The position numbers were made by a program, and so were the translations under genes. A stretch of 63,602 nucleotides of DNA, filler included, from Guillardia theta CCMP2712 (taxonomy: Eukaryota; Protista; Cryptophyta): assembly GCF_000315625.1 (NCBI RefSeq). It is 5 parts of 5 records of this genome, joined end to end, with 100 filler letters (N's around TTAATTAATTAA, not from the genome) between each part and the next. Parts side by side here need not be neighbours in the genome. Positions count along the whole stretch, not along the records: positions 36,723 to 60,102 come from NW_005434398.1; 4 more parts are not named here. The stretch is one strand, 5' to 3'. This document shows, piece by piece, positions 17,857-61,625 of this stretch (positions are counted from its first letter, which is position 1; each line of letters starts with the position of its first letter). The notes below the pieces were generated by a model. It ran no database searches. It was not told the DNA's origin and saw only the letters and a list, made by a program, of their open reading frames with translations.

Positions 17857-18237
17857 ATGTCCTCCCCCTTTCCCTCCTCCCACGACTGGTATAACCTCGA
17901 CCTCCCCCTCTACGCCTTCCTCTCTAACCTCTCTGTCGACCCTTCCCTCCACTCTGCAATCACCTCCATCGCCCGCGATCACCTCCTCCTCCTCGCTGCC
18001 GCCTTCCTCCCTCTCGCCCATGTCATCGCCCTTGCCGTGCGCTGGCTCCTTGAGGACGAGGACGATCATGACCTCTGGGGACGTAATATCGTGGCTCCTG
18101 CTGTCGTATCAGAGCGGCAGGAGGCAGCAGCGTTAGGCGGGGCAGGGACGGGAGGCTTCGATAGGAGAAAGATGCTGGAGCCGTGCTTTGGACAAACGTT
18201 CAAGGTCAAGCGCATGGGGATTTATTATTCGGATTAA
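17857..18237 (+). CDS. Small membrane protein, FGQTFKV family (subtype C)
   Basis: 126 aa; MSSPFPSSHDW, hydrophobic segment, WLLEDEDD, and GGFDRRKMLEPCFGQTFKVKRMG. Confidence 0.75.
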   Translation: MSSPFPSSHDWYNLDLPLYAFLSNLSVDPSLHSAITSIARDHLLLLAAAFLPLAHVIALAVRWLLEDEDDHDLWGRNIVAPAVVSERQEAAALGGAGTGGFDRRKMLEPCFGQTFKVKRMGIYYSD

Positions 18238-22830: not shown

Positions 22831-22895
22831 CTAAACCCTAAGAAAAGTTGAATAAACCCTAAACCCTAAACCCTAAACCCTAAACCCTAAACCTA
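22830..22895 (+). repeat. Interstitial telomeric repeat (CCCTAAA)n
   Basis: About five tandem CCCTAAA units at 22856-22895 plus a partial tract at 22830-22842. Confidence 0.9.
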
Positions 22896-37395: not shown

Positions 37396-37410
37396 AGAAA
37401 ACCTCTACCG

Positions 37411-39258: not shown

Positions 39259-42200
39259 TCAGTTCCCTGGCAAGTTTCTCTTTAACATCGCCGCATAGCT
39301 CCCGGCTGTGCTGTCAGTCACAGCAGGTTCATCAGCCTGTGTCTCCTCACCGCGACCACCTGTCACATCATCATCATCTGCTGATGGGTCTGCAACAATC
39401 TGTTCAGCTGTTGGTGCAGCGCCTTCACTCCGATTGCTTCTCCATATAATTCCCAGATTCTTGTAGTAAAGAATGTACGAATATGAACAAAACCGTTTCC
39501 GCGTGCCAAGGTCCACCCATGCGTCTTTCCCATAAACTGTCTCAACCACTTCACGAAATCCTGTTCTGTAACATTGCATCAAGTTCTGTGGCATAATCTC
39601 TTCTCCTTGTGCAAGCACCCCCCGTTCCCGGCAAATCCTCTCCACTTCATTCATGACCACCCTCGCTTTGTTGATGTTCCTCCTTGTGTTGTAGTCTGTT
39701 ATGTCGTCCCGGTACCGTGCAAGTCCAAGGTACTTGAATGGCCGGATCCTCCGCACTTGACCTGTGTCATCAATTATGTCCTGTCCAATATTCCACCACA
39801 TGAACATGCTCCTCGTCGGCACCCGCAAAGGGAAGGTAAAGTTGCTTGGAACCATGTGCTTAGCACGTCCATCCATTTCCCCTTCCCACTCGAAATCGTC
39901 TCCCCCTACCTCCAATTCACTGCTCGCACGTAGCACTCCCTGCCCACTGCGAGCGGATTGGTTCGAGTTCACTTCTTCCTCAGATCCTTGTCCATCTGCT
40001 GGAGAATCCAGTTCTTCCTCCATCATCTCCCTCGAATCATTGCGGCCGGCCACTCGGTCATCTTGTATCGCGGGGATGTTTAATCTGCCCAGAATCTGCA
40101 TCACCTCTGCCCGTATCAACTCTTTGATACTCTCCGTTTGCTTCTGATTCTGCGCCTCAACCACGTTCTTGACCATACCTTCGAATTCCGCCATCTTCTT
40201 GACGATACCTTGGAATCCCGCCATCAATTGGCCGAATACACCACCACTGCCCATGCCTGCATCTGTCTCAATTCCCTGCATCATTGGTCTGTTAGTTGCA
40301 CTGCACTGTCCACTGGAAGTTGTAGCATTGCTGCTGTTTGACAAGAATAATTCCTGTGCCTGCCCTGCCACCGTCTCGCCTCCTTCTGTGCTTCGAACGA
40401 CTGTGAATGGAAGTGCTGAACCGGTGAAATGCGCCCTAATCTCCTGCCTGATTTCTCCCAGTTCTCTCAAGATGTCAGTCTTGGACGGGGTTCCACTGGC
40501 GGTCATCCCACATTCTGTACATCTGTGCACGGGTACGACAACCTCTTTTCGAAGCAACATGAGTCTTCTCATCGTGTCCGCACCAAATATACCAAACATA
40601 GGCATGCCCCATATGAAATGATCATTGTCAGGATACCATCCTTGTAAGGTAGGGAGATGATACAGAATGCTCGCAAGGAAGAATTCGGTACATTTCTTAA
40701 AACCGTTCGGGAATTGCTCGTATCCATCGACAAAACGCTCCCACCCTATCTCTTTCACCTGTCTCAACCCTTCCTGTGTGAAATGCGGAGGCAAAACCCC
40801 AAAATTGGCCGTGGTGCTATCGTTCCCTGCCAGTATTCTTCCCGCGAACTGATCTCCTCCCGTCCCACCAAGAATGTATCGATCCTGTGTATCTCCTAAA
40901 CATAATAGTATCATGAAGTGAAGTCCAAATCCCTACATGCCATACCTATCTTCCAGTTGGCTCTTATGTACACTGTGGGTGCTCCTGAACGTGTTAAAAT
41001 CAGCAGTCATTCCAGATTGATAAAACATCAAACCTGGGCCATCCAGCATCCCTAGAAGGTGGGAAATACCACCCTTTCTTAACGAGTGCGTGCCAGGAAT
41101 TCCAAAGTTGTCAGGTTGTTCCTCGCGTAGAACCCTTTGCAAAAGCTGTTGAAATCGATGTCGTTGGTCCCTCCCAATAAACAATTTGCTGCCTTGCTCT
41201 GACAAGCAAATCCCCCTGCATGCAAAGGTGTAAAGCCCAAGAATGAGGATCGGGCAAATTTCAGGGCTGTGCGGAGCCGCAAAAACATGTTTCACACGAG
41301 TGCTCTTCAAATCCGTGCCTATGCCTGCTTGGTCCGTTTTAGTTCGAAGCAACACTACTTTCATGGCGTCTTCTTCCCACGACAGGTGTTCCAAATGAAG
41401 GATGTCCAGTGATTCACTCCGACATACCAGGTTCCACATGAGGTTGGTGCATAGCCAACCGAAAAGCCATGAGTCCCCGGGTTCTGTGCTTCCCCTGCGA
41501 GGTTTGATATGTCTCACAAAGTTGCACAACATTCGATACTGCTGCATGTTGATAGCAGTTCGACCTTCTTCCATGGACATTATCCCTTTGCTCTTCTTTT
41601 GTGCGACCACCTTCTTGTATGAATGCATACTGTCCTCCAATTCAAGGTCCAATGAAACATCTTTTGGTATCCCCGTCGCTGTGAAGGGTACTTTCCTTCG
41701 CTTGTACAGATATTTCAAAGGATGGTGGACACCGCAACGGTTGCTTTCTCTGATGCTTTTGTAGAAGCAGATCCTTCGCCATTCTCCGGGACCTCCGGGA
41801 CCTCCGGGACCTCCGGGACCTCCGGGACCTCCGCAACCTCATCTTCCTCTTGTCCATCATCCTCTCCGATGTCTTGGTTGATGTGCATAGACGATGAAGC
41901 TTCTTCCAATGCTATTGATGCGTTACTATCATTGTTGCCAGTTTGACCTCGTGGTCTCTTCCTTGCTCGGGCCAACTGGTCGTTTCCAGACAAATATCCG
42001 AAAAAAGCGAGAAGCGGTTCATATGGAAGTGGTACCTTCAAATTATCCAAAGACTCAGTCAAAGCGCAATGATAAGCTGGAAAGGATTTGAAGAAAAGTA
42101 TCATTGCAAATATGCGATATGCGTAGGTTTTCTGCGTGCTGATGCTGACCCTGTGCGATTCTAAGTTCCTGAATGCTTGCACGTTGCTGTCACTGTTCGT

Positions 42201-42476
42201 TGCCATCGGTGCGTCGGGATCATTGAAAACGGACAGTATGTCAAACTCATCTCCTTCCCGCGTCCGTTTACGTGGCCTGCCACCCACCCCAAGTCTCTTG
42301 CCGCCTCTCTGACATGTTCCGCAATAGTCCCCTTGATCGCTATTAGCACGTTGAAAGGCACATAGAATATGGAATTTTTTTTGGCAACTTCGACATACCT
42401 TCAACTGTGCATCATCTCTTTCCCGCAACTGACAATCAGGTCCAAATAAGCATGTGCTGCCATTTTCAGTCGCCAT
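39259..42476 (-). mobile_element. Crypton tyrosine-recombinase transposon gene with N-terminal PHD-like zinc finger, two introns and one frameshift
   Basis: Tyrosine-recombinase residues CRS, TKTDQ, HSLRKG, RANW, QDRY. Removing introns 40985-41033 and 40896-40945 gives GPGAPTVYIRANWKIGDTQDRYI. Also GDQFAGRILAG...LPPHF and HMVPSNFTFP...WW..G..IRPF. Frameshift near 41718. Confidence 0.88.
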
Positions 42477-46563: not shown

Positions 46564-46762
46564 ACCGGTCACGGCCGCCCGGAGACATCAGCCGCCCGGA
46601 GACATCAGGCCCCCGGCCAATCTCCGGACACTTAGCCTCCTGGCGGGCCTCCAGGGGGTCTGAGGCGGGGCTGAAGGCTGCAGTCGGTCTACTGACGGGC
46701 CCGGCCGGCAGGATCCGTCGAGAAACAGGGGGGTCAAGGGAGGTTTTCTTCCCCCTGGGAGA
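46564..46762 (-). repeat. Inverted copy of part of the 332-bp terminal repeat unit
   Basis: Reverse complement matches TCTCCCAGGGGGAAGAAAACC...GGCCGTGACCGGT of the array at 58.5-59.9 kb, with a small internal duplication. Confidence 0.95.
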
Positions 46763-46914
46763 TTCCTCTTCCGTCCTCGTTTCTTCGGAGCCACCGGTTG
46801 ATGCATAACCCCAGGCATCGATTCCATGGAGTCATGGGATTGCTGCGAGAGGCGGAGGAATTCTGCCATAGAGACGCGGCTGTCCCGCGAATCATCCCTA
46901 TGAATCTCCTCCAT
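46588..46914 (-). pseudogene. ORF truncated by, and reading into, the left repeat
   Basis: Unique N-terminus ending in NLS-like PKKRGRKR, then repeat-encoded LPGGRKPP... Confidence 0.45.
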
Positions 46915-47009
46915 GGCACCGATGGCTTGGGATATTCAAGGGTCGCAAGACCAAGCGCGTCGTAGTATTCAAAAAAGATCCCTGAAACCCTGCATGTGGG
47001 CGGGAATTG

Positions 47010-47205
47010 CAACCCGAGTAGCTGTAAAGTTTTTAGGATGGGTCAGGCCAACCCTGCCCGACGGGCCAGACGCTGCAGAATAGCTGTAAAATTTTTCGAT
47101 CGTGTAGTAATGAGCATCGGGCCAACCCTCAGGCCAAGCCAACCCTCCCCGGGAAGCTGTAAAATTTTTCATTGAGTAGTAAAAAGCGACGGGCCAACCC
47201 CCAGC
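47010..47205. repeat. Three imperfect ~65-70 bp iterated units with AGCTGTAAA(A/G)TTTTT and GGCCAACCC cores
   Basis: Cores at ~47020, 47082 and 47155; GCCAACCC occurs four times. Confidence 0.8.
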
Positions 47206-47290
47206 CACAAAAAACACACGCCAACGAATAAGGTTATGCGCCCCGAGCCCGGCGATCCTATTTGACCAGGCCTCCCGTGCGACTCACAAG

Positions 47291-47590
47291 ATGTACTTTA
47301 CACATTCCAACGGAGAGAGGGTCACCATCGGGAGTGACAGCCGGTTGACGGACCTGGAGGTGTTCATGAGGGCCAAGCCGTACCTCAACCGTAAGCTAAA
47401 CATCCACTACGGCAGCGGTCAGAGGGTAAGGGTGTACGACGAGCCCGAGCTCTCCGTGGTCAGCCGCATGGTTGCGGCCTACTACAATTTCGAGCTAGAG
47501 CAAGATTCCGATCTCTTCGAAGACCCTATCTTCAAGTCTAGCCTGTGGAACACATGCCTCTTTGCCCAAAGCGAGGACGGTCGGGGATAA
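47291..47590 (+). CDS. Hypothetical virus-like protein (may continue by frameshift to 47730)
   Basis: ATG ORF of 99 aa with TATTTGA at 47259-47265 upstream; an overlapping frame 47545-47730 continues past the stop. Confidence 0.6.
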   Translation: MYFTHSNGERVTIGSDSRLTDLEVFMRAKPYLNRKLNIHYGSGQRVRVYDEPELSVVSRMVAAYYNFELEQDSDLFEDPIFKSSLWNTCLFAQSEDGRG

Positions 47591-48022
47591 TCCCCGTCGA
47601 TGAGGCCAGGCAGGATGTCCATCATGCAACGGACAATGCGAGCAGTGAAGGTGAGGATGAGATCGGCCAATGCGAGGAAAAATACCGTAAGTGGCGACAC
47701 CTATTTATGAAATGCGGCATTGCGTTCTGATGAAGAGGGAGCAGCAGTAATCCTTGAAGTTCTCATATGTGCTAAGGCATGAGGTAGACTCACAAATCTC
47801 CTCCTCCACCGCCACATCCTTCGTCGCACACACGATGCCGCGCAGCTCTGATACAAAATCCGACGCACTCATCTGAGGCCGGCCCGGCATTGCTTGCCCC
47901 TACGCTTGCCGTTGAGCCCCGCGACCGTTTTTTTTTAAAAAAAAAAGAATTCAAATCCCCCTCCGGACCCTTTTTTAAAAACAGGGCCGCCACTGGCCAT
48001 TCCCACGCACCACCTACCACGC

Positions 48023-48289
48023 ATGGCCACCACGCCGCAGCTCGCCCCCTGGCTCATCAAGTCGCTCAACGAGGACACCATATTCGTCAAGCTTGCAAGA
48101 AAGGCAGAATGCAGCGAGGATGAGGACGACTTCGACGGGATCCTGTCCCCGCTGCCGACCAAGGTTGATCTGCAGGTGCCAAATACCCCAGTGAAGAAAA
48201 GGAAGACCTTCACGCCGATCCACTCGCCGGTAGAATCCGACGCCGAATCCTCCTCCCTATCCGACTCGGACTTCTCCTTGAATGAATAA
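48023..48289 (+). CDS. Small acidic/Ser-rich protein with NLS-like TPVKKRK
   Basis: 88-aa ATG ORF, upstream TTTTAAAA, AATAAA overlapping the stop. Confidence 0.6.
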   Translation: MATTPQLAPWLIKSLNEDTIFVKLARKAECSEDEDDFDGILSPLPTKVDLQVPNTPVKKRKTFTPIHSPVESDAESSSLSDSDFSLNE

Positions 48290-48309
48290 AAAAAAAGGGA
48301 TGCATATGC

Positions 48310-48460
48310 ATGCAGGGTACCTTTGACGGGAATTTCAGCACCTGTGTGATGTGCGGCCCTGGGTTTGTCTATTCTTTGAACACTTCGACTTGCCAGGATG
48401 TCAACGAGTGCTTGGACGCTTCTCTCTGCCCGGCCAACTCCACCTGCATCAACACCTATG
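48310..48460 (+). pseudogene. Calcium-binding EGF-like domain fragment
   Basis: CGPGF......CQDVNECLDASLCPANSTCINT, broken after NTY and joined out of frame to the next ORF. Confidence 0.7.
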
Positions 48461-51400
48461 TGCGTGATAGAACCGGGTCAGACCTACGGCGCCTGCTCCT
48501 GCTTCCTTACCAAGGTCACCCCGCAGTCCTGCACGGCGTCGCAGGTGGGGCATTCGGTGAACTATAAGCTCTCCGGGCTATGCATGGCGCAGGTGACCAG
48601 CAGCATGGGCGGGTTCAGCGCCGCGTCGAGCTCCACCAACACGATCAGCTACAAAAACCTGCTGGCCACACCCTGCTACAACGCCGACCCGGCCAATATG
48701 TACTGCTACAGCGTCTACAGCTCGGCGTTGAGCTACTCCCCCATGCTGGTCTCCTTGGGGGTGAGCGGGATATCAGGGTCGGGTGGTCAGGGGCCCTACG
48801 GTAGGCGACTGCTCGGCATTGACGACGGGCCAGAGTTCTTCAGCCATGACGATGCATGCATGGACGCATGGGATGAGTTCCTTGCTACCAACAAGAGCAC
48901 AAGGGTGATGGCGGGCTGTGTCACCCGCTTTGCCGCCACTTACGACGTTGTTTCCCAGCACGGCATGTTAGACTACATCCCACCGAATATGTTTGTCAGC
49001 TGGTCGGACTTCATTGCAACCGTGGGAGAGAGACCAGAGTCCCTTCTTATCCTGCTCTACTCGCCAAGGATGGCGGTCGACCTTATCTTCAGGACTCCCA
49101 CCTTCAACCGCCTTTACCGGTACTACTTCATCTGGGTGTCAGCTCTGTCCGATGCCTATTTCGACATTGCCGTGCATAAGAGGCTCGACGCCAACGGCAG
49201 CCTGCACTACGAGGTCGACGCGGATGGTGGCGTCTTCATCAACGGCCACAATATCAGTGAGATGACGCTGATACTGCTCAACCTGCTCCACGGCGCGCAC
49301 CGCCACTTCAATGCCACGGAGACAAACCACACCCTGAGCCTCGCGGTGAGGAACAGGGAGTCGGTCAGGAAGCTCCTCTCGATGACGAGCCTCTCGCCCC
49401 TCGCCACCGAGCTCCTGTACAACGGCAGCGGGGTGGAGGAGAGGGTCACCCTACGCCACCTCATGCAGTTCACCTCCTGGAAGACACAGATGAAGGAGGT
49501 CCAGAGGTTCACGGGCTCCACGGCCCTGAACAACGGCGTCCAGCAATCCGTGGGGACGGCCACCGATGCTGCCTGGGTGAACAGCCCCTTTGCATGGCCC
49601 ATCAACTACGACTTCGGCGGGACGGTGCTCCAATGCCAGCTTCCATTACGTCATGATCTTGAATTACTCAATAATGCATCTGGTACAAAGGCTGGCCCAG
49701 TGGGCCAGATCCAATTAGTCCTGAGGGGGGCATAGCTTGCCGTCCGGGGTCCAGAAGCACACATATCTGCTTTAGACTACCCTCCTTTCCCCTATCAAAT
49801 GTCGGGTGGTGTAGCACTACCCCGTTTGTGGTTGTGAGGTCCTTCAAGGGGGGTAGACGAGGCAAATTGAGGCTGTTCTTGGAGCCTGTTAGTACCGGAT
49901 CTCGAGCTCCTCGTACAGTTCTAATACGCTTTTAAGGCGATTTCAGGGTGATGGTGAACTGTGTTCCACCCCCCCGCACCCAACAAACGGCTAGTTTGAA
50001 TTTACATGCATGAGTACCCCCATTTTAACCCCAGGTTCTCTTGGGAATGCGAGGGTAGGTGATTGGAAACAAGACACCTCCACCCCCTGCTTTCCAAGTT
50101 TGAAATATAGAAAAAGGGGGTAGGGGTCACCCCTTTCCTTCACTTTCCCCAAATCCCCCCTCCCTCGACCAAGCAAGAGATGGCGAACCGATCCCTTGCT
50201 CGCGCGCGACAACCAATTTGAATGGTGAGAGACTTCGAATCTATGTGTACTGTCATGTGGATGAATAGAAAACTTCTCTTTGAACCTATCCATAATGGTT
50301 GAGAACCACTCTTGGATTCCAAGAGGAAAGAGAAGATTTGAATCTGAGTTCGTTGAGTTGCTTGTGAATACAAAGAAGCTTTGAAGCATGGTGAGAATAG
50401 TTTTAACTGTATGTTAATGATGATGTTTGCTTTCTTGATCTTGTGATGGTGTAAATATGCATCAAATACTGTTTTGAGCGGCAAGGATTCAAATTTGCAT
50501 GGTTACATTATCCCAACAAGCATGTCACTTGCCTTCTTGTGTTTGCACTGAGACGCCTCGATGATGATGTATCTTAGTTATATAAGCGATTTTCACACTT
50601 TGAGAAGGAAAACATGAGGAAAGTGGATCAGGGTGCGATGAGAGATGCAACCTTCGAATACTTGATGGAAATGCGATCCTCCTTGTTGCGTTGCCACCCT
50701 AGCATCCTGGTACCAGAATGCTACGTGAGATGAAAGTGAAGCAGATTTGAAGATACTTGCTGTTGCTTTTCTATGTTTGTGATGGATTTGAATCAGGTGA
50801 ACGCCAAAGAAAGTGGCGTCACCAATGATGCTTGCACATTGTATGCAGATGTATGTGACTCTCTCTCTGTTGGTGACATTCATTTCATGCAATGAGGAAC
50901 TTGCACGTCACATACTCTAGCATGGTACTATGCATGTGATAGCGTGCAACTGTTTCATTCACAGGGTAGCTTCAATAAAGTCAAATCATCACATCCTTGC
51001 TGGTTAGATTCGTCTTACATGCCAATGCTCGTCGCCATGTAATTCTTTACATTCTTGTGCTTGTGGCTTTGTTAAGCAGCCACACTCCACCATGCCGGGC
51101 ACTGAGCCTGGCATCGTGCACATGATGGTCATACATATAGCTTTACAAGCAACTAATCGAATAGGCAAACAAAGATGAAGAAAGCATGAGACATCAGCTG
51201 CCTCCAGACAAGGTTAGCTCTCTGCCAGCGAACGCATCAGCCACTTGAAAGCTGAATCATGATTGAGATCGCCAGAATTGTCTGTCGCACTGCAGTTGAT
51301 TTTTGAAAACAACTCTCATGAGCTGTACTAGCCATTCCTTCTCTCAGAGTCTTCTCTCATGCGATTCCATTGCCGAGGAGTTTTCTCTCGTGCTTTCAAG

Positions 51401-53431
51401 TATTGATAGTTGAAGGCTGGACTTGAATGCCGGGCGTTGTGCATCAGTGCACTTCTCTGAGCAGTGGAAGCAGAGCCATTGCAACAAGCCCATCACAGCT
51501 AAGATGATAAATCTGTCGGTGAAAGAAGTTCAAAGCCAAAGAGGACGGAAGGTGTAACTTGCGGTTTGGAATAAATCTACAGCCAGACACGAGTCTAACT
51601 TGTACATAGTCATAATTGTGACAATTGTACGACATGTATGAATGAAATATATTCTATTGATGTTACTTTGTCTAGAACAAGAACATGCATCTGAAAGGTT
51701 GTAGTGTAATCCCAACATTTTACACATGCGAAGCATCATTATCTAATGTCAAAATATAATGAGGTAGCGATGCAAATCATGATGAAAACTTCAAGACGTT
51801 TGAATTCGGACTGGCATCTTGCATGGCGCCACAGATGATTCAAATCATGAAGTGCAGATCTTGAAAATCTCGAGGTGCTTGCACTAAAGCGGCTTGACAA
51901 CTATCGTTCAGCTTCATTCTAACTCAGAAGAAGACGCTGCCTGTTCCAAACATCTCCAAGATTGCATCAATCTCAAGTTTTTCATTCATGCCAAACCAGC
52001 ATTCTCAGCCTTCAATCCCATGAGAAGCGATAATCGAGGTGTGACGTACCTCTACGCAATCATACTCCTTCACCACCTGCTTCAGACCTCCATTTCTTCA
52101 TGTCAGACTTGATACTTGTTTGCTTTGAACGAAGAACACAAATGCCTGTTGCTTCAGCTCTTGCATGCGCCGACGCCATGCATCATGGAGGGCGCTTCGG
52201 TACTGCGTGCCGGCGTGTAGATGGCGACATGTCGGGCGTGTAGGGGAAGCCGGGGAGTACTCGAAGTCAATTTGAAACTGGATTTGAAATTTTACATACT
52301 TGTAAACAGTACCAGAAAGCAACTTTAAAACCTGTAGTAGACCACCCCACCCCACAATTTGATGTGTTTGCGAACAACCCCGTTCAGGAAGAAATGGACC
52401 AAATTTCAAGATCATGACGTAATGTGTCGAGGTCGGTTGTGCTGGTCAAGGATGCGTTCACCAACACCTCGCTCTACTACACCAACGGGCATGCCCTTGC
52501 CGCCACCCCCAGGGCTATCGTGTCGGGCAGTTGGCCCTTCAGCAACCTCCCCTACCGCGGCCCCGTCCCCCCGCTCAAGCAGCCGGCGAATCAGAACTTC
52601 TTCAACATGATCGTGTATCAGGCGACCGTGTGGATCGACAATACGCCCTTCAATCGCCAGTTCTTGTATGACCTGTTCGGGGCATTGCCTGGCGAGATCC
52701 TCGACCTATCCAAATGCGACAGGCAGGCCGTGATGCTCTGCACTCGCCACCACTACACCCTGCTGGTATCCGGCTTCGTGATCGCGGTGGTATGGATGGG
52801 GCTGTCACTGGTTCTGACGTCCTTCCGCATCCCCCACATCACAGCCCTGCTGTGGACCACATACCCGGCCATCGTGGTGTATTATGCCTTTGGCGTCTCC
52901 CCGCTTTGCTTCCCGATGATTCCGACCTGTCTACTGGAGGACCTTGTCAATGTCCTCAATTTCTTCTTCCCCGCCACCATCCAGTTCCCCGACAGCCTGC
53001 AGGCAAGCCCGGGGTGCCTTTCCAACGCTCATAATTCCACGGAGAGGGCGGCCTGCATCCTATCCTGCTCCCAGCAGCCCTTTGATTATGTATCGTGGGA
53101 GGCGGAAATCTCCTGGTGGACCTGCCTCGTATCCACGGGTCTCTGCAGGTCGGTCGATAGCTTCGTCACCAGCCGCCCCGTCCTCAACAAGCTCACCTCC
53201 CTGCACAAGAACCTCGCAGTCAAGGCCGCGATTGTGGAAGGCAACAACATGGATATGATCGTGGCGCAGTCGGCATGCGCCACCCTGAACATCTGGAGGA
53301 TCATACCCCTCATCATGATCCTCTTCCTCGTGTTCTACGCCTTCAGCGTCATCGCTACCTTCCCCTTCTTCCTCTTCAATGAGGTCATCAGGCTGGCGAT
53401 CCAGAGCGTGATCATGACGCACACGGACTAG
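48459..53431 (+). pseudogene. Large Cys-rich multi-pass membrane/surface protein interrupted by an insertion (segments ~48459-49643 and 52425-53431)
   Basis: Removing 49644-52424 joins ...CAG CTT C|TG TCG AGG... in frame (QCQLLSRSVVLVK). Cys-rich ectodomain, GRRLL motif, N-glycosylation sequons and C-terminal TM helices. Confidence 0.8.
49644..52424. mobile_element. Non-autonomous TIR element, perfect 20-bp TIRs, no TSD
   Basis: CATTACGTCATGATCTTGAA (49644-49663) and TTCAAGATCATGACGTAATG (52405-52424); AT-richer, ORF-poor interior. Confidence 0.88.
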
Positions 53432-53488
53432 TTATTGAATGGTGGTCTTTACTTAGAACCTTACAGAATCAGAGCCTACGTCCAATGC

Positions 53489-53845
53489 CTAATAAAAGAT
53501 AGACAGGAGCAAGGAGTACAACTCCTCGTCGGTGGTCGGGACAACGAACTCGAATGGCTCGAGGCCATGCAGACTCCTCAGCCTCTTGATGCTGTGGTGC
53601 AGGCTGAGATAAGCTCGGATGAGCGCAATGAAGTTAGCACGGTTGGCAGGAAGGACGTGGATCCTCTTCGCAACCTCATTCAGCTGCTTGCGAGTGGGTT
53701 TGCAGTTGTGCTTCAAGTCCAGATGCAAGACGATGATGCATCGCAATTCCTCCTTCGTGCTACGAGCAAGTCTCTCGTAAATAGAGATTTGTTCACCTCT
53801 GGCCTGATTCCTGGTAGTAGAGTCTGTTTGACTGCGTGTGATCAT
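53489..53845 (-). CDS. Small basic protein, tandem paralogue 1 (MITRS... family)
   Basis: Aligns with 53946-54299 (MITRS.T..T.RN..R, KPTR.QL..VA..I, EELYSL.LS); TATTTAA ~39 nt upstream. Confidence 0.75.
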   Translation of the reverse strand: MITRSQTDSTTRNQARGEQISIYERLARSTKEELRCIIVLHLDLKHNCKPTRKQLNEVAKRIHVLPANRANFIALIRAYLSLHHSIKRLRSLHGLEPFEFVVPTTDEELYSLLLSIFY

Positions 53846-53883
53846 TTGAAGAAATGAACCGTGCCGGTAGAGAGTCGGGTGAC

Positions 53884-53890
53884 TTAAATA
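53884..53890 (-). promoter_or_regulatory. TATTTAA box
   Basis: Conserved with its downstream leader in both paralogues; the same motif lies upstream of other island genes. Confidence 0.55.
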
Positions 53891-53945
53891 TTGAATGGTG
53901 GCTTTTATTTGTAAGCTTACAGAATCAAAGACCAATATCTCATGC

Positions 53946-54299
53946 CTAATCAAGCACAGACAGGATCAAGGAGTACAACTCCTCCGCGGAGTCAGCGAAA
54001 ACCAACTCATATGGCTGATTTCGATCTAGACCCATCAGCGACCGGATCTTGTAGTCATTGTAATGGACAAGGAAGATGCGGTTCAGGAAAAGACCACGTT
54101 CGCAAGGACATCCGTAGATCTTCCTCGCGACCTGCATAAGCTGCTCACGGGTGGGTTTGCCTCTCTTCATGTTGGAATGGAAGCGGACAACCTTTCGGAT
54201 GACTTCCTTCTCATGCCGAATATGTTGCTTGTATTGTGATACCATCGTATCTCTGATCTTATTCCTTCTGGTTGCGTTTGTTTTACTGCGTGTGATCAT
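53946..54299 (-). CDS. Small basic protein, tandem paralogue 2
   Basis: As for paralogue 1; same spacing of TATTTAA (54338-54344) to the ATG. Confidence 0.75.
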   Translation of the reverse strand: MITRSKTNATRRNKIRDTMVSQYKQHIRHEKEVIRKVVRFHSNMKRGKPTREQLMQVARKIYGCPCERGLFLNRIFLVHYNDYKIRSLMGLDRNQPYELVFADSAEELYSLILSVLD

Positions 54300-54337
54300 T
54301 GTAGGAAATGAACCGTGCCAGTAGAGCATCGACTGAC

Positions 54338-54344
54338 TTAAATA
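54338..54344 (-). promoter_or_regulatory. TATTTAA box
   Basis: Same position relative to the ATG as at 53884. Confidence 0.55.
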
Positions 54345-54433
54345 TCGCATCGAAATCTCGGCATGTGTAACAAAAAAAATCGATCCATCCCCTGCGCTCA
54401 AGGTGACACTGACTCATCGGTGCTTTGAGATGC

Positions 54434-55411
54434 ATGCAAGTGAGTTGCGATGAGTGCTTCGTCTGCAAGCGCTGCCGGGACGGAAGGGTGTCGAGATGCA
54501 AGGCGTGCAGGCCCTGCTTAGACTGCAGTGATCAGAGGGTGAGATGTTGGAGGGGGGTCAGCGCTCCGTTCCTCCTCCCGCGGGGGTTGAAGGGGCATCG
54601 GTGCGACTGGCAGACCATCGATATCGACCTTGCGGGTTGCAGAGAGTGCGGTGCCATCCATCGCTGCGATGCATCCTCCTGCCCCGTGTCCGAGGAGAAT
54701 GACAGCCATGTATGTCTCATCACGGGCAACTGCGTGAGGATGAAGAGGTTCACGAGGGACGAGTTCATGGACAGCGTGGTGATCATGGACCTGCCCGAGG
54801 CGATGGATAGGGAGGTCAAGCTGCTTGTCGAGATGCGGGAGGTGAAGGATAAGGTGGAATGGATCCTTATGTCCTCCACGGCCCTTCAGAGCTTCGACCA
54901 GGAGCGTGGGCGTATGGAGCAGAAGCACCGCCATCTGATGTGGAAGGCGTTGAGGGAGGTGAAGGTGCAGGGGAAGATCCCGAACCTCTGCGAGGTGATG
55001 ACGAAGATACTGTATGCCACCAACAAGATCAGGGTCTGCAGCAACACCTTCCAGGAGGACCTCCGCTCCCTCATCTCGGAGCGCTGCACCCACAGCATCA
55101 CCCGCTTCCTGAACATGATGGGTCAGAGGTTCAAGAGCGTGCTTTCAAGTCTGAAGAGCACCGTGCTCATCATCGGGACGCTATACCTGATGCGCATGGG
55201 CATATCGATGAACAACATCATCCTGCTTCCCCGCATTCCCCAGCTTCAGCTGCTCCTCCCCATCGAGACACACCTCAAGAGCTACTTCCACGTCAAGTGC
55301 AAGAGCATCACGGAGGTCGAGAACATGATCAAGATGTGCCTCCGGGGGCTGAGCTCGGGAGAGCTGGAGAGAATGGGCTTCACCGTGGTGGAGAACGGGG
55401 TCGTGGTGTGA
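54434..55411 (+). CDS. UL92-like (herpesvirus late transcription factor family) Cys/His-rich protein
   Basis: CRECGAIHRCDASSCPVSEENDSHVCLITG = C-x2-C-x3-H-x-C-x4-C-x10-C-x2-TG. Extra N-terminal CxxC repeats, intronless, AATAAA just after the stop. Confidence 0.7.
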   Translation: MQVSCDECFVCKRCRDGRVSRCKACRPCLDCSDQRVRCWRGVSAPFLLPRGLKGHRCDWQTIDIDLAGCRECGAIHRCDASSCPVSEENDSHVCLITGNCVRMKRFTRDEFMDSVVIMDLPEAMDREVKLLVEMREVKDKVEWILMSSTALQSFDQERGRMEQKHRHLMWKALREVKVQGKIPNLCEVMTKILYATNKIRVCSNTFQEDLRSLISERCTHSITRFLNMMGQRFKSVLSSLKSTVLIIGTLYLMRMGISMNNIILLPRIPQLQLLLPIETHLKSYFHVKCKSITEVENMIKMCLRGLSSGELERMGFTVVENGVVV

Positions 55412-55849
55412 GAGCCAATAAAATGTTTCAATCGGTACTGGGTGCTGGTGGTCGGGAGATTCTCCCCAAGCCATGCAGTACCAATTTGCGGTGAGGAAAA
55501 TGGTGAAAGGCGCTGTCTTCTGCCCGTTCTGCCATTGGCCCCCACATCTCAGGCCCTGGAGGCGCTGCCCCTGCCCTTGGGCGAGGCTCATACCGGCCTT
55601 CCAGGGCGCAAGGCGCGGGTGCGAGCCGAAGAGGAAGGAAGGATAGAGATTAGGTTTTATTTTACTTCTTCTCGCGAAGACTTAATAAATGATCGTTGCA
55701 TTTGAGGATGGCGTAGATGGCCTCTGAGAAGAGGCAGGCTTCGGATCGCACGTGCAATACCTTTTCTTCGCTGCTCTCCTTGCCGTCCAAATCTTCGTAC
55801 TGCGCGACATCGTAACACGCTGTGACCTCTAAGTGTTAAATACACGGGT

Positions 55850-56221
55850 CTAAAAGAATCCCCAATGCCTCCGCTTCTTGACGCGCACGATGTCCACCTC
55901 GGTCAAGGTCACCGGGGCGGTGGAGCTGAGGACCTTGACGTGAAGGGCGATCCTCTTCCCCTCGAGGGGCACGACGCCAACGTTCTGAACCCTGACGGGG
56001 TTTGCGTCGCGTATGAGCTGCAGGTCCGAGAGGCTCAGGATGCTGTCGGAGGTCTTGGCGATGATGACGAAGCCATCCTTGGAGGTGCGGACCTCGTAGT
56101 CGTGGAAGCATAGGTCCCTGGAAAGACCCTGCATCACCGCTACCACGTTCTCGATCACCACCCTGTCATCGGCCTTGATGCCAGAAAGCATGCCCTCCAT
56201 CGGGAGCACCGCACTTGCCAT
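55850..56221 (-). CDS. Hypothetical virus-like protein with a basic C-terminus (VKKRR)
   Basis: Intronless ORF, ATG at 56221, TATTTGAA at 56248-56255. Confidence 0.7.
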   Translation of the reverse strand: MASAVLPMEGMLSGIKADDRVVIENVVAVMQGLSRDLCFHDYEVRTSKDGFVIIAKTSDSILSLSDLQLIRDANPVRVQNVGVVPLEGKRIALHVKVLSSTAPVTLTEVDIVRVKKRRHWGFF

Positions 56222-56332
56222 TGATGACGATGGCCACACCTGAAGGGTTCAAATAGCTGCATTCGCGTGGGAGTGGTTTGCATGTGTGTTCTTGTTTTTT
56301 AATATCTATAACAGAAAGGTCTATCCTACCTA

Positions 56333-57655
56333 CTACTTGAAGATCCATCCGCAGCTTGCATAGAAGAATGCCATCAGGGCGATGAGCATAGCTGGGGACA
56401 TGATGATTACATCCAGACTTGGGTCATAGATGCCAGGCTTCAAGAAGCAACCCATGGTGTTGGAGACGGTGCGCACGTTGGCGGTGCGGTAATAAACCAC
56501 GCCGATGCTGAAGAGGGGGAGAACGCTTTGTATGACCATGTCGTCATCGCTGAGCAAGGCCAAGACGATGCAGTTCACCGCAACGATGATGTATGTCACG
56601 ATGCGGCGAGAGTAGAGTACGTACTCGGAAAGATAGGGTGCTACCTCCCATAGGCGCACCTTGTTGATGTTCCCGTGGTTCCCGATGCAATTGTTTGCAG
56701 GCTTGTCCTCGGTGTATTGCATCTCGCCCCTCATATCGTTTGTAATATTTGGGATGTACGGTATCTTGTTGTATGTCTGTGATACGGATACCATGAAGAC
56801 ATTGAAGCACAAGCAGGAGTACACCATGGAATAGATGAACATTGAGATATACTTGGTGACTATCTCATCGATCATACCCTGGCGCAGATTGTCGTAGTAA
56901 TACATGTTCTGCTTCAGTTGCTCGAACGTGTCAATGTCATTGCTGGAAGATTTTTTAGACACCACCATCTTCTTGTACATCTGATCCAGTTTCGACTGAT
57001 AGTAACTGGAGTATTGCTGCGATTCGTCGATGAGCAAGTCGATCTCGGCAGCCTCACGAGCTGTTTTGTGCAGGAATGTATACCCCACCATCAGCGTCAA
57101 TGTGCAGTACATCAACAAGGTGAAGTGAACCCAGCAGTGATTGTAGAAAAAGAAGGTGTTGTATCCCGTCTCAGAACCCACCTTTATCAGGCATGTTATA
57201 TGATTGTAGGCCATGCCCAACAAGTACCATCCGACCAGGTCAAACGTTATGAACATGACGATATCAACGTTCCCGCTGTTGTTCAGGTCCGTCGTCATCA
57301 GAAGCAGCGAGTAGTACAGAATCTGTAATATGGCTATGTATGGAACAATGTCCGGTATAGCCAAGTCGTAATAACTCCGCATAATGTACTCGAATTTGTA
57401 TTTGATTGCTAGGGTCATTAAAGCAATCAAGAGCTTCCAAAGGAGCATCAGGAACATGACCTTTGTCGGGTGAATGTAGAGGCTTAGCATGAAAGCGTTG
57501 CCGAGTAGGAAGTATCCGCCGACCGTGGAGGCATGTGAGACAAGTTGATCAACCTTGTCTTTTACCAGGTAGTACAATAGACCAGTCTTGATATCGGTTA
57601 TTTGTGTCCTCAACCATACAGGAACCATCCTGAGGTCCTTAGGGCAAATCAACAT
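56333..57655 (-). CDS. Multi-pass membrane protein of unknown function
   Basis: 440-aa intronless ORF with many hydrophobic segments; TATTTAA at 57660-57666 favours the ATG at 57628. Confidence 0.8.
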   Translation of the reverse strand: MLICPKDLRMVPVWLRTQITDIKTGLLYYLVKDKVDQLVSHASTVGGYFLLGNAFMLSLYIHPTKVMFLMLLWKLLIALMTLAIKYKFEYIMRSYYDLAIPDIVPYIAILQILYYSLLLMTTDLNNSGNVDIVMFITFDLVGWYLLGMAYNHITCLIKVGSETGYNTFFFYNHCWVHFTLLMYCTLTLMVGYTFLHKTAREAAEIDLLIDESQQYSSYYQSKLDQMYKKMVVSKKSSSNDIDTFEQLKQNMYYYDNLRQGMIDEIVTKYISMFIYSMVYSCLCFNVFMVSVSQTYNKIPYIPNITNDMRGEMQYTEDKPANNCIGNHGNINKVRLWEVAPYLSEYVLYSRRIVTYIIVAVNCIVLALLSDDDMVIQSVLPLFSIGVVYYRTANVRTVSNTMGCFLKPGIYDPSLDVIIMSPAMLIALMAFFYASCGWIFK

Positions 57656-57659
57656 TCAC

Positions 57660-57666
57660 TTAAATA
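57660..57666. promoter_or_regulatory. TTAAATA/TATTTAA box in a minimal divergent intergenic region
   Basis: Lies ~32 nt from the minus-strand ATG (57628) and ~37 nt from the plus-strand ATG (57703). Confidence 0.5.
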
Positions 57667-57702
57667 CTTTACAGCAGAAGTTGCGCCCACGTCATTGCAG
57701 GG

Positions 57703-58500
57703 ATGGAAAAAAGGCGCGCTCAAAACCCCGGCGCGGGGGACCAAATCCGTCCAAACCCCGAGACAGCGGTGCGCATGAGCCTGTGGAGCGACCCGCTCTG
57801 TGCGAGGGCGTTGATGCATCTCTGCATATGCGATAGGACATTTCTCCCAGGGGGAAGAAAACCTCCCTTGACCCCCCTGTTTCTCGACGGATCCTGCCGG
57901 CCGGGCCCGTCAGTAGACCGACTGCAGCCTTCAGCCCCGCCTCAGACCCCCTGGAGGCCCGCCAGGAGGCTAAGTGTCCGGAGATTGGCCGGGGGCCTGA
58001 TCTCTCCGATCCTCACCACCTTTATGGGGGAGCACTTCAGCATGTCGGTGAACATGCGAAAGTCCTACAACAGCCGGGACTACGAGGGGCTGCACCTTCG
58101 CCTCGACCCTGTAGAGAGCGCGAAGCTCTTCGATTACGCCATCGACCTGGTTGAACGCCGCGTGCCGTACAATTTCGCCGACCTGCTGTACCAACCGATG
58201 AAGGCCGTCCTCCCGGATAGCGGATTCTTTGAGGACGTCCCTAACGAAAGCTCCCTGCAGGTCAAGAAGGTCTTCTGCTCCCAGGCTTTCGTCCTAGCCC
58301 TGCGCAACAGCCTGCACAACGACGACCTCGCCGGGGCACTCATCGACGAGAGCCCAATCCAGCGGAAGAAGCTGCTCTGGAGGCTGATCAGCGAAAACAG
58401 CCGGCTCTGCACTCCCAGCGACCTCTACCATATCATCAGGCCTTACTGCAGGAGAGTGGACATGGACCGGCTCCGGCACGGCCATTTGTCTTACACATAA
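57703..58500 (+). CDS. Permuted papain-like NlpC/P60-type protein, disrupted in frame by a repeat copy
   Basis: PYN...KKVFCSQ...NSRLCTPSDLY motifs; 57835-58007 is repeat-derived. Confidence 0.55.
   Translation: MEKRRAQNPGAGDQIRPNPETAVRMSLWSDPLCARALMHLCICDRTFLPGGRKPPLTPLFLDGSCRPGPSVDRLQPSAPPQTPWRPARRLSVRRLAGGLISPILTTFMGEHFSMSVNMRKSYNSRDYEGLHLRLDPVESAKLFDYAIDLVERRVPYNFADLLYQPMKAVLPDSGFFEDVPNESSLQVKKVFCSQAFVLALRNSLHNDDLAGALIDESPIQRKKLLWRLISENSRLCTPSDLYHIIRPYCRRVDMDRLRHGHLSYT
57835..58007 (+). repeat. Internal direct copy of half of the 332-bp unit
   Basis: Identical to AGGACATTTC...GATCTCTCC of the array units. Confidence 0.95.
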
Positions 58501-58539
58501 TCTATGAAATACCTACGGAGTGGCTCCTAGACTCCTTCA

Positions 58540-59940
58540 TGGCCGGGGGCCTGATCTCTCCGGGCGGCCGTGACCGGTCAGCGGACCGTGTCAGCAGGCC
58601 CGTGACATGTCAGCCGGCTGACAGGGGCCGTGACCCGGCTGACAGGCTCACCTGACCGGTCACGTGACACATCACGTGACCGAGACAAGACTTTTTTATA
58701 TCGCAGATCCAAAAACCCATAGGACATTTCTCCCAGGGGGAAGAAAACCTCCCTTGACCCCCCTGTTTCTCGACGGATCCTGCCGGCCGGGCCCGTCAGT
58801 AGACCGACTGCAGCCTTCAGCCCCGCCTCAGACCCCCTGGAGGCCCGCCAGGAGGCTAAGTGTCCGGAGATTGGCCGGGGGCCTGATCTCTCCGGGCGGC
58901 CGTGACCGGTCAGCGGACCGTGTCAGCAGGCCCGTGACATGTCAGCCGGCTGACAGGGGCCGTGACCCGGCTGACAGGCTCACCTGACCGGTCACGTGAC
59001 ACATCACGTGACCGAGACAAGACTTTTTTATATCGCAGATCCCAAAATCCCATAGGACATTTCTCCCAGGGGGAAGAAAACCTCCCTTGACCCCAGGGGG
59101 AAGAAAACCTCCCTTGACCCCCCTGTTTCTCGACGGATCCTGCCGGCCGGGCCCGTCAGTAGACCGACTGCAGCCTTCAGCCCCGCCTCAGACCCCCTGG
59201 AGGCCCGCCAGGAGGCTAAGTGTCCGGAGATTGGCCGGGGGCCTGATCTCTCCGGGCGGCCGTGACCGGTCAGCGGACCGTGTCAGCAGGCCCGTGACAT
59301 GTCAGCCGGCTGACAGGGGCCGTGACCCGGCTGACAGGCTCACCTGACCGGTCACGTGACACATCACGTGACCGAGACAAGACTTTTTTATATCGCAGAT
59401 CCAAAAACCCATAGGACATTTCTCCCAGGGGGAAGAAAACCTCCCTTGACCCCCCTGTTTCTCGACGGATCCTGCCGGCCGGGCCCGTCAGTAGACCGAC
59501 TGCAGCCTTCAGCCCCGCCTCAGACCCCCTGGAGGCCCGCCAGGAGGCTAAGTGTCCGGAGATTGGCCGGGGGCCTGATCTCTCCGGGCGGCCGTGACCG
59601 GTCAGCGGACCGTGTCAGCAGGCCCGTGACATGTCAGCCGGCTGACAGGGGCCGTGACCCGGCTGACAGGCTCACCTGACCGGTCACGTGACACATCACG
59701 TGACCGAGACAAGACTTTTTTATATCGCAGATCCAAAAACCCATAGGACATTTCTCCCAGGGGGAAGAAAACCTCCCTTGACCCCCCTGTTTCTCGACGG
59801 ATCCTGCCGGCCGGGCCCGTCAGTAGACCGACTGCAGCCTTCAGCCCCGCCTCAGACCCCCTGGAGGCCCGCCAGGAGGCTAAGTGTCCGGGAGATTGGC
59901 TGGGGGCCTGATCTCTCTGGGGGGGCCGTGACCCGGTCAC
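58540..59940 (+). repeat. Tandem array of a 332-bp GC-rich, palindrome-rich unit (~4.2 copies, probably continuing into the gap)
   Basis: AGGACATTTC starts at 58721, 59054, 59413 and 59745; one unit carries a 27-bp internal duplication. Confidence 0.97.
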
Positions 59941-61625
59941 TCACCCGCGTAACATGCCCGTATCATGTCATCCAGCTGAAAGGGGACAGTGACACAGGAA
60001 AACAGCTCCCGTGACGGGTACGTGGCACCTCACCTTCCCAGCTCCGGACTTGAGGTATCGTCATCCCAAAGCCCAGGGAGGGTTGCGCGCAGGGGGGAAG
60101 AANNNNNNNNNNNNNNNNNNNNNNNNNNNNNNNNNNNNNNNNNNNNTTAATTAATTAANNNNNNNNNNNNNNNNNNNNNNNNNNNNNNNNNNNNNNNNNN
60201 NNTCTCCGATCACTTTCGTCAGCCCTTTGATACCCATGGCGCCCCGACACTGAGTACCCCTACCCACTACCCCCATCAAATTGATTGATGACCGGTGGTG
60301 GCTTCACCCTACCCCTACAAGAGGATGATTAAATTAAGGACCCGTAATGGAAATCTTATACCCGGTACTGAGAGCTTATTCAACGAGATTTATCAGGGGT
60401 ACTTATTCAACTGAATCAATTCATCACCCCTCCATTATGATTCATCGATATCAAGAACCCCCTTCCAACCATGGGTGTACCCTCTCTACCTAGTACCCAC
60501 CCAGCAGCTTCTGACTTTCCCCTTTGGGACAAGGAAAATTTCTTCAGTTTTTGACCGAAAAAGAGAAAATTCGGGAAATGGCCCGAAAGCTTTCTCTGGT
60601 CTACCATCTTCCTGGTTCACGGTCGTGAAGAGTCATCCGAAATAGGTCGCTGGGGTAGGGGTAGCAAATATGGGGGTAGGGGTGATAATATCACCGGTAA
60701 TTTTGGGTTTATTTTGGGCAAATATTGGTGGTAGGGGTACTTTTGTACCCAGAGGTGATTTCATCTGTACTTGATGGGTAAAGGTGCAGGCACCAGGGGG
60801 TGATACCATGGGGGGTGGGGTGTAAGAATTGCGGTGGTGGGTAGTATGAAATATTGTGGGGTGGGGTGGGTGTTCTTCCGCACAGAGACAATCAACAGAA
60901 CCGGTGGGAGGCGAGGAAGTTCATTTGAAAGGTGGGGGTACAATAGGAGCTAAAAGAAGGGGTCCATCATGGTCTGACTTGAACATGTATGTAGGGGTAC
61001 ATCAAATATTTTGTACATCAATCTAGGGGTGGTAGGGTCACTTTGCAACATTGTCGGGGTGGTCTTGAGATCAGGACAGCATGTCCATCTATTGTAGGGT
61101 ATGTATAGATAGGGTAGGGTAGGGAGAAAGGGGGGTAGGGTATTGTAAACGAAAGGTGGGGTACAGTTGCAGGGTAGGGTCCACAAGTTTAGCCATGCTG
61201 GCAGATCATCGACATAGGAGGAATCTGAGAGAAGGAGAGGAGAGGAGAGGAGAGGGGAGGGGAGGGAGGGAGGGAGAGAAAGATAGGCATGCAGAAGAGA
61301 AGAGAGAGAAGGAGAAGCACATGGTTGAAACAGGTACCACAGGCTAGAAAGACTTGGCAAGGAGGTGAAGAACGAGAATCACTGCGAAAAGCTGGCAGTG
61401 GTGATGAAGAAGGAAACATCGTAGAGGAGAATATTAAAAGGGAGGAACGTGGAGATAATTTGGAATAGCCAGAAGCCGTCAAGGAAAGCAACCAGTAGAA
61501 ATGCTTCTTCAAGCACAGCGTCGAAGTGAGGAGGAGTGGAGGGGGTTGACTTTTCTAATCAAACAACTTAGCAAGCCTCTCCTCTTTGACTTGTTCTCGC
61601 GCTTACAGTCTTGTCATCAGTTGTA

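What the first reader, a model, noticed from the sequence alone, without database searches (positions are those of the whole stretch)
58540..59940. 332-bp terminal tandem repeat built from nested TGAC/GTCA palindromes
Seen: each unit has a half packed with palindromes (TGACCGGTCA, TGACATGTCA, 16-bp TGTCAGCCGGCTGACA at 58608-58623, GGTCACGTGA-caca-TCACGTGACC at 58658-58681), then TTTTTTATAT, then a half starting CCCAGGGGGAAGAAAACCTCCC. Units are almost identical. Inference: an array of dimeric-protein binding sites acting as a replication origin, episome-maintenance element or cleavage/packaging signal. The G-run/A-run/C-run loosely recalls herpes pac1 motifs (speculative).
Basis: partly seen in the sequence, partly recalled or inferred. 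Interest (0 to 1): 0.7.

Follow-up and report, generated by a model that had tools for sequence, protein, structure and literature searches.

The report
Hidden major satellite beside mirusvirus remnant
A 332-base, palindrome-rich DNA unit shows only four clean copies in this alga's assembly but is thousands of times deeper in sequencing data than the genes beside it, so it is likely a major satellite DNA (roughly 10,000 copies) whose pieces have broken up a neighbouring herpes-like virus remnant, rather than that virus's working end.

Summary
The repeat is real: four 332-bp units (one with a 28-bp gain), then a decaying fifth that runs into an assembly gap. Twelve TGAC half-sites and five palindromes of 10 bp or more far exceed shuffles. 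The window is cryptophyte DNA (its genes match records named Guillardia theta). The array borders a 13-kb scrambled mirusvirus-like island. The key result is depth: in the 2 laid runs that cover the island, the unit is about 5,000-20,000 times deeper than single-copy island genes. In 5 other runs it alone assembles, identical or nearly so, as a head-to-tail loop. That is far above the 21-41 copies of a herpesvirus terminal repeat, and strict pac1, pac2 and G-quadruplex patterns are absent. Best reading: a homogeneous major satellite (about 2-5 Mb, a centromere or heterochromatin candidate) that the assembly collapsed. Two loose fragments of it sit where viral genes are cut off. A viral origin (an hr-like or terminal element amplified in the host) or an extrachromosomal concatemer is not excluded. 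I found no description of it in print.

The parts
58540..58871 (+). repeat unit 1 (332 bp, 63.6% GC)
58872..59231 (+). repeat unit 2 (360 bp; 27-bp internal duplication at 59065-59121 plus 1 bp)
59232..59563 (+). repeat unit 3 (identical to unit 1)
59564..59896 (+). repeat unit 4 (one extra base)
59897..60102 (+). fifth unit decaying towards the gap, likely a low-quality read end
   Evidence: identity 0.89 in the first 35 columns, 0.54-0.77 after
60103..60202 (.). assembly gap (N runs with spacer); the array likely continues into it
58563..58691 (.). palindromic half of the unit: 12 TGAC half-sites in a shared ~11-bp context, both orientations, including 2 CACGTG cores
58692..58732 (.). AT-rich linker (34% GC) with T6 run; reads as a TATA-like ATATAAAAAA on the minus strand
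   Evidence: function untested
58733..58871 (+). GC-rich non-palindromic half starting CCCAGGGGG
57833..58008 (+). loose 176-bp fragment of the unit (unit positions 180-332 and 1-23), standing in place of the first ~72 codons of a viral gene
46564..46762 (-). loose inverted fragment of the unit (positions 190-332 and 1-39, with a short internal duplication) at the left edge of the island
58003..58500 (+). 5'-truncated copy of a 237-aa permuted papain-like gene (residues 73-237 remain; the His motif is lost)
   Evidence: 96% to P0007; Peptidase_C92 only as an Atlas lead, on 12% of one cluster
46765..46914 (-). first 50 codons of a 1754-aa protein of unknown family, cut off by the repeat fragment
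   Evidence: 82% to P0137 residues 1-50, rest absent from the window
54434..55411 (+). UL92/VLTF3-like late transcription factor gene (island marker)
   Evidence: Pfam PF03048 E 4.9e-8; 61% to the L001 gene
55850..56239 (-). small conserved gene, syntenic with the mirusvirus-like contig L001
   Evidence: 56% over 127 aa

Best explanation
The 332-bp unit is likely a major chromosomal satellite DNA of this cryptophyte alga, present in roughly 10,000 near-identical head-to-tail copies (inferred from read depth), and the window catches the edge of one array before an assembly gap. Shown: tandem structure, homogeneity, extreme depth, adjacency to a broken mirusvirus-like island, and repeat fragments at two gene breaks. 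Inferred: the arrays are kept uniform by unequal exchange or rolling-circle re-insertion; the 12 TGAC motifs per unit dock a host DNA-binding protein and nucleate heterochromatin or centromeric chromatin; 332 bp may be two nucleosome lengths; the viral DNA landed in or beside this repeat domain and was scrambled by illegitimate recombination with the abundant repeat, leaving fragments at the breakpoints.
For: Depth. Run X1: a 5328-nt contig over island genes (52532-57859, no differences) has depth 80, while summed depth over the unit is 1.87 million. That is 23,000-fold raw, about 11,700-fold if overlapping contigs count twice as they do in X14. Run X11: 25,969 at 57908 against 2.8-4.7 for island contigs, 5,500-7,100-fold, or 6,800-18,000-fold when scaled through 5 variant sites shared with X1. 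The two runs come from different studies, 2011 and 2021. In 5 of 8 laid runs (X14, X15, X3, X4, X5) only the unit assembled; in 4 of these it is one closed 360-362-nt contig with 0-1 differences, the signature of a uniform tandem array or circle. No Rfam family at gathering score, no spliced-leader match, no tRNA, no plasmid or phage match. No exact hit of 3 patterns in viral contigs, 1 in metagenome contigs or 1 in prokaryote genomes. Both loose fragments cut viral genes whose remainder is missing, which fits junction filler better than a working viral element.
Against: Depth comes from contigs, and the tool warns that summed depth is no copy number; run types are guesses (X1 'DNA?', X11 '?'); GC or amplification bias is uncontrolled. 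Contigs cannot tell chromosomal arrays from free circles or concatemers. No junction is bridged by 31 or more bases on both sides in the pieces listed (the X1 contig enters the fragment by 27). All 3 occurrences in the window touch the viral island and none lies in the other ~50 kb, and the left one is inverted to the array like a terminal inverted repeat. No centromere or chromatin data. Nucleosome-like phasing of the 5 breakpoints is not significant (P 0.09), and the TGAC sites are not helically phased (P 0.23-0.48). No whole genome was held, so the genome-wide distribution is untested.
Confidence: 0.55

Rival explanations
1. The unit began as a mirusvirus cis-element (an hr-like enhancer/origin or a terminal repeat), entered with the virus, and was then amplified into a chromosomal satellite of about 10,000 copies.
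For: 3 of 3 occurrences in the window adjoin island DNA and bound it in inverted orientation. The anatomy (clustered palindromic TGAC sites, E-box cores, a TATA-like run) recalls baculovirus hrs (PMC4758234 passages; Landais 2006 seen as a title only). Earlier unchecked notes report hr-like arrays in other mirusviruses (leads only). A ~92%-identical copy with the same internal junction occurs in a lake-water metagenome, one 191-nt contig at depth 2.
Against: No similar sequence or TGAC cluster in 14.8 of 21.4 kb of the related viral contig L001. No hit in viral or metagenome contigs. The loose fragments lack the palindromic half and break genes instead of sitting between intact ones. Local spreading from a nearby array explains the clustering equally well. 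The lake contig is single and shallow, and its source is unknown.
Confidence: 0.22
2. The unit is mostly extrachromosomal: a 332-bp minicircle or rolling-circle concatemer (a defective amplicon carrying an origin) kept at thousands of copies per cell, pieces of which integrate now and then.
For: Closed 360-362-nt contigs in 4 of 8 laid runs, very high uniformity, and near-identical presence in runs under 10 organism codes. Mirusvirus episomes are known in protist cultures (10.1101/2023.06.15.545109 and PMC10827195, passages).
Against: Closed contigs arise equally from chromosomal tandem arrays. Island genes and their variants reach only about 1-5 times single-copy depth in X1, so no high-copy close helper is visible. 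The ratio is of the same order in 2011 and 2021 runs. Identical copies at depth 130-217 without any island DNA (X4, X5) fit trace carry-over: at a 10^4 ratio, single-copy DNA would be at 0.01-0.02x and not assemble (inference).
Confidence: 0.13
3. One reading: a few-copy terminal array that serves this viral island as origin, episome-maintenance element or cleavage/packaging signal.
For: Position at the island edge; palindrome clusters; one loose C-run/TTGA/C-run at 58751 (pattern fitted after looking, so its shuffle rate is not a test).
Against: Depth 10^4-fold above the viral genes versus 21-41 terminal repeats per KSHV genome (PMC13595911); strict pac1, pac2 and G-quadruplex patterns absent; the island has truncated genes and no match to the L001 capsid protein.
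Confidence: 0.05
4. Technical artefact: library amplification or assembly inflated and misplaced the unit.
For: The fifth unit is degraded and ends at a gap; junctions are not bridged by 31 or more bases.
Against: The same unit at the same order of excess depth in two studies ten years apart, and held at half or more of its words by 16 runs.
Confidence: 0.05

Closest known systems
Eukaryotic satellite DNA, including centromeric and subtelomeric satellites (general properties recalled)
   Same: Head-to-tail uniform monomers of a few hundred bases, thousands of copies, collapsed in short-read assemblies, loose fragments near arrays.
   Different: GC-rich (64%) with a dense, ordered cluster of palindromic TGAC sites and a TATA-like run; joined to mirusvirus-like DNA; chromosomal position untested.
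LORE-TEARS of Aurantiochytrium limacinum (10.1101/2023.06.15.545109, passages)
   Same: Host tandem units of similar size (366-529 bp) that flank an integrated mirusvirus element.
   Different: LORE-TEARS have 1.8-22.6 copies per array and are tied to subtelomeric rDNA; no rRNA match in 57600-60100, and total depth here implies far more copies.
Baculovirus homologous regions (hrs) (PMC4758234 passages; bZIP-site clustering seen only as a cited title)
   Same: Tandem units built on palindromes with TGAC-type half-sites.
   Different: hrs are 0.3-1.2-kb arrays between intact viral genes; here the unit is 10^4-fold above viral genes, has no perfect TGACGTCA or TGACTCA, and its loose pieces break genes.
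Herpesvirus terminal repeats and 'a' sequence (KSHV 803-bp TR; HSV-1 pac1/pac2) (PMC13595911, PMC10763189 passages)
   Same: GC-rich reiterated unit at the edge of Duplodnaviria-type DNA, found at recombination joints.
   Different: pac1, pac2 and G-quadruplex patterns not met; copy number hundreds of times too high; no intact genome attached.
Geminivirus-related DNA (GRD) tandem arrays in Nicotiana (recalled; the paper was not held)
   Same: Precedent for a virus-derived origin region amplified as tandem repeats in a host genome.
   Different: GRD carries recognisable Rep sequence and far fewer copies; viral ancestry of this unit is not shown.

Membership tests
Satellite DNA | Head-to-tail tandem monomers | tested here: met
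   closed unit-length contigs
Satellite DNA | Thousands of copies per genome | tested here: met
   depth ratio about 5,000-20,000 in 2 of 2 runs that cover the island; inferred from contig depth, not counted
Satellite DNA | High homogeneity among copies | tested here: met
   units 1, 3, 4 at 99.7-100%; 0-1 differences in closed contigs of 4 runs; minor variants at high depth
Satellite DNA | Long arrays on chromosomes | not testable with these tools
Centromeric satellite | Bound by CENH3, one domain per chromosome | not testable with these tools
   needs ChIP and FISH
Herpesvirus terminal repeat / a sequence | pac1: A/T run flanked by C-rich runs on both sides | tested here: not met
   strict pattern 0 hits; one loose, after-the-fact match at 58751 (definition PMC10763189)
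Herpesvirus terminal repeat / a sequence | pac2 with CGCGGCG next to a T-rich run; G-quadruplex potential | tested here: not met
   0 hits for both (definition PMC13595911)
Herpesvirus terminal repeat / a sequence | Tens of copies per viral genome | tested here: not met
   about 10^4 per island gene against 21-41 in KSHV (PMC13595911)
Baculovirus hr-like element | Tandem palindrome-bearing units | tested here: met
Baculovirus hr-like element | Dispersed between intact genes of a viral genome | tested here: not met
   loose fragments lack the palindromic half and cut genes; nothing similar in 14.8 kb of L001
Baculovirus hr-like element | Origin or enhancer activity | not testable with these tools
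   needs a plasmid replication or reporter assay
Mirusvirus endogenous element (the island) | Viral late transcription factor (UL92/VLTF3-like) and gene order shared with a mirusvirus | tested here: met
   PF03048; 2 genes shared in the same order with L001, which also holds a heliorhodopsin
Mirusvirus endogenous element (the island) | HK97-fold major capsid protein | tested here: inconclusive
   not in window 36000-63602; the 1230-aa L001 protein has 677 homologues and its model's best hits are herpesvirus capsid chains, but weak (E 0.012 and above, TM about 0.2). Mirusvirus MCP is reported for Guillardia (PMC10827195 table and supplement rows)
Spliced-leader or other ncRNA gene array | Contains the 17-nt cryptomonad leader or an Rfam family | tested here: not met
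   0 matches at up to 3 mismatches (sequence from PMC5619915); no Rfam hit at gathering score

The most novel reading that the evidence does not exclude
A mirusvirus origin/enhancer or terminal element was amplified to about 10,000 copies and now makes up several percent of a cryptophyte's nuclear DNA, either as a virus-born satellite (possibly the centromere) or as a free selfish amplicon, and it drives the scrambling of incoming viral genomes or soaks up their DNA-binding proteins.
Probability: 0.25. Interest if true: 0.82.

Novelty: new member of a known kind. Interest (0 to 1): 0.5.

Why it matters
About 2-5% of a model cryptophyte's nuclear DNA (against 87.1 Mb, PMC12220804) may be one unreported repeat that the assembly collapsed. 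It is an immediate candidate for the centromere or main heterochromatin, testable with one FISH probe and one ChIP. Its joints with mirusvirus DNA offer a view of how integrated giant-virus genomes are broken up. If the unit proves viral in origin, it would be a DNA-virus cis-element turned into a major satellite and would point to a mirusvirus origin or terminal sequence. Practically, it is a sensitive tracer of carry-over of this alga's DNA into other libraries.

Tried and rejected
Exact-pattern scans: viral contigs 0 of 3 patterns, metagenome contigs 0 of 1, prokaryote genomes 0 of 1. Protein-led scans of viral contigs found no relatives in 4 of 4 tries. Plasmid and phage blastn: none, so not a vector. 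Rfam: 11 matches, all far below gathering score. Spliced leader, tRNA and bacterial promoter/terminator scans: none. Breakpoint phasing P 0.09 and helical phasing P 0.23-0.48: not significant. No RNA holder listed; this says nothing on expression. The 440-aa membrane ORF is not detectably related to its positional counterpart in L001. PDB sequence searches, PHROGs and the Atlas for the L001 protein gave nothing usable. Earlier-finding look-ups by sequence, place and two word sets were blank. Literature searches for a description of this repeat listed none; the library lacks most subscription papers, and bioRxiv supplements were not seen. The rest of L001's contig could not be searched, and the viral fold library was not searched.

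Full report
Observation. The array is there as described. Tandem Repeats Finder gives period 332 over 58540-59939. Units 1 and 3 are identical, unit 4 has one extra base, and unit 2 has a 27-bp duplication plus one base. Each unit has a palindromic half (58563-58691), a 41-bp AT-rich linker with a T6 run, and a GC-rich half. The palindromic half holds 12 TGAC half-sites in a shared context of about 11 bp, in both orientations. Counts exceed dinucleotide shuffles: 14 versus 2.9 TGAC/GTCA (0 of 2000 shuffles) and 5 versus 0.3 palindromes of 10 bp or more (1 of 2000). No 130-bp stretch elsewhere in the window passes 7 sites. A fifth unit decays into an N gap at 60103, which looks like a read end (inference), so the array's length is unknown. 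Two loose fragments, mostly of the non-palindromic half, lie at 57833-58008 (+) and 46564-46762 (-).

Context. The window is eukaryotic: simple repeats, a Harbinger-type transposase, a BRCT gene. The ORF at 54434-55411 hits Pfam Herpes_UL92. Its best database match, identical over the aligned part apart from a modelled gap, is a record named Guillardia theta; further relatives are from Hanusia phi and metagenomes. One related metagenome locus, L001, shares this gene (61%) and the next small gene (56%) in the same order. L001 also encodes a heliorhodopsin and a 1230-aa protein with 677 homologues, whose model's best fold matches are herpesvirus capsid chains, though weak (E 0.012 and above). 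Heliorhodopsin and HK97 capsids mark mirusviruses (PMC10132985, passages), and mirusvirus markers are reported for Guillardia (PMC10827195, passages and supplement rows). A TATTTAA motif occurs 4 times in the island, once elsewhere in the window, and 3 times in L001. So about 46600-58500 is a mirusvirus-like island. It is broken. The fragment at 57833-58008 stands where the first 72 residues of a 237-aa papain-like gene should be. The fragment at 46762 cuts a 1754-aa gene after codon 50. Multicopy segments interrupt it at about 49650-52420.

The decisive result is depth. Sixteen public runs under 10 organism codes hold half or more of the unit's words. I laid 8 of the 24 listed runs on 46770-58718, a stretch with each half of the unit once. 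Two runs cover the island. In X1 a 5328-nt contig with no differences has depth 80, and the unit's summed depth is 1.87 million. Overlapping short contigs inflate the sum, about twofold where it can be measured (X14: 5126 versus 2406), giving about 11,700-fold, or 5,800-fold if fourfold. In X11 depth at 57908 is 25,969 against 2.8-4.7 for island contigs: 5,500-7,100-fold directly, 6,800-18,000-fold when scaled through five shared variant sites. The tool warns that summed contig depth is no copy number and the run types are guesses, so this is an order of magnitude: about 10^4 copies, 1.7-4.6 Mb for 5,000-14,000 copies, 2-5% of 87.1 Mb (size from PMC12220804). Five runs (X14, X15, X3, X4, X5) hold only the unit; four of them as one closed 360-362-nt contig with 0-1 differences. 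The simplest reading for those under other organism codes is trace carry-over (inference). X17, a lake-water metagenome, has one 191-nt contig at depth 2 with 15 differences and the same internal junction; it hints at relatives elsewhere but is thin.

How it most likely works. A uniform, non-coding unit at about 10^4 copies, stable in order of magnitude between 2011 and 2021 runs, is what a chromosomal satellite looks like (established knowledge, recalled). I found no RNA family, leader, tRNA, vector or phage match. I infer arrays homogenised by unequal exchange or circle re-insertion, with the TGAC cluster binding a host factor that builds heterochromatin or centromeric chromatin. The cluster could also be a by-product of short duplications and inversions when the monomer arose. 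The viral DNA would have landed beside such an array and been rearranged against it, which explains repeat pieces at gene breaks whose other halves are gone. None of the mechanistic steps is shown, and two tests that might have helped were not significant.

KSHV has 21-41 terminal repeats (PMC13595911); here there are thousands per viral gene. pac1 needs C-rich flanks on both sides of an A/T run (PMC10763189); the quoted motif has a G-run and a C-run. Strict pac1, CGCGGCG and G-quadruplex patterns are absent; one loose C/TTGA/C match was fitted after looking. 'Terminal' is not shown, since the array meets a gap.

What remains open. All three occurrences in the window touch the island, the left one inverted to the array, and the unit's anatomy recalls viral hr enhancers/origins. 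Unchecked earlier notes describe hr-like arrays in other mirusviruses. A viral origin followed by amplification (0.22) or an extrachromosomal concatemer (0.13) cannot be excluded by contigs. Against them: nothing similar in 14.8 kb of L001, no hits in viral or metagenome collections, loose pieces that lack the palindromes, and no high-copy close helper among island variants.

Comparison and novelty. It works like a satellite and passes the three satellite features I could test; chromosomal location and centromere role are untested. It fails membership as a herpes-type terminal repeat and as an hr in this island. The nearest arrangement in print is host tandem repeats flanking an integrated mirusvirus in Aurantiochytrium (10.1101/2023.06.15.545109, passages). 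Six searches listed no description of this repeat; the library is incomplete. Papers seen: passages of PMC10827195 (plus supplement rows), PMC12220804, 10.1101/2023.06.15.545109, PMC10763189, PMC13595911, PMC12768974, PMC4758234, PMC10132985, PMC4063692; parts 1-2 of 3 of PMC5619915. GRD of Nicotiana and general satellite properties are recalled.

Verdict. Real feature; observation confirmed, interpretation partly supported. New member of a known kind (satellite DNA), confidence 0.55; interest 0.5. Most novel reading, a virus-born satellite or amplicon: probability 0.25, interest 0.82 if true.

Noticed in passing
window 46960-47290: Three GCTGTAAA and several GGGCCAACCC repeats upstream of a small ORF at 47291; GCTGTAAA also lies beside TATTTAA at 57668 (-). 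Possibly a viral promoter or iteron cluster.
   Followed up: no
window 53884, 54338, 55836, 57660 (-); L001 105, 5252, 14775 (-): TATTTAA motif concentrated in the island and in L001, resembling the TATT late promoter used by UL92-type complexes (resemblance recalled).
   Followed up: partly
window 46765-46914 (-), P0137: The cut gene's full-length relative (1754 aa, one Logan record) has no Pfam or PHROG family; by eye it has a P-loop-like and an acidic Walker-B-like stretch.
   Followed up: partly
window 39259-42476 (-): Three ORFs, one with tyrosine-recombinase-like motifs by eye (Crypton-like element); no Pfam or PHROG hit.
   Followed up: no
window 36742-38451: DDE_Tnp_4 transposase (E 2e-18) facing a 346-aa ORF: Harbinger-like transposon.
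   Followed up: no
window 49650-52420: Low-GC multicopy segments (depth about 290-1960 against 80 in X1) lie between two membrane-protein-like ORFs (48398-49735, 52424-53431); whether these are parts of one gene is untested.
   Followed up: no
window 53489-53845 and 53946-54350 (-): Tandem pair of small paralogous ORFs (67% DNA identity), each behind a TATTTAA motif.
   Followed up: no
window 22853-22893 and about 23900: Interstitial (TAAACCC)n telomere-like repeat, about 6 copies.
   Followed up: no
window 12100-18230: Six dispersed copies of a 78-bp segment ending short ORFs with a shared C-terminal motif (family D20); a similar motif lies at about 8250 (-).
   Followed up: no
L001 11556-11603 and 13006-13053: Identical 48-bp segment at the start of two minus-strand genes, with TATAAAT running into the ATG.
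   Followed up: no
   Followed up: no
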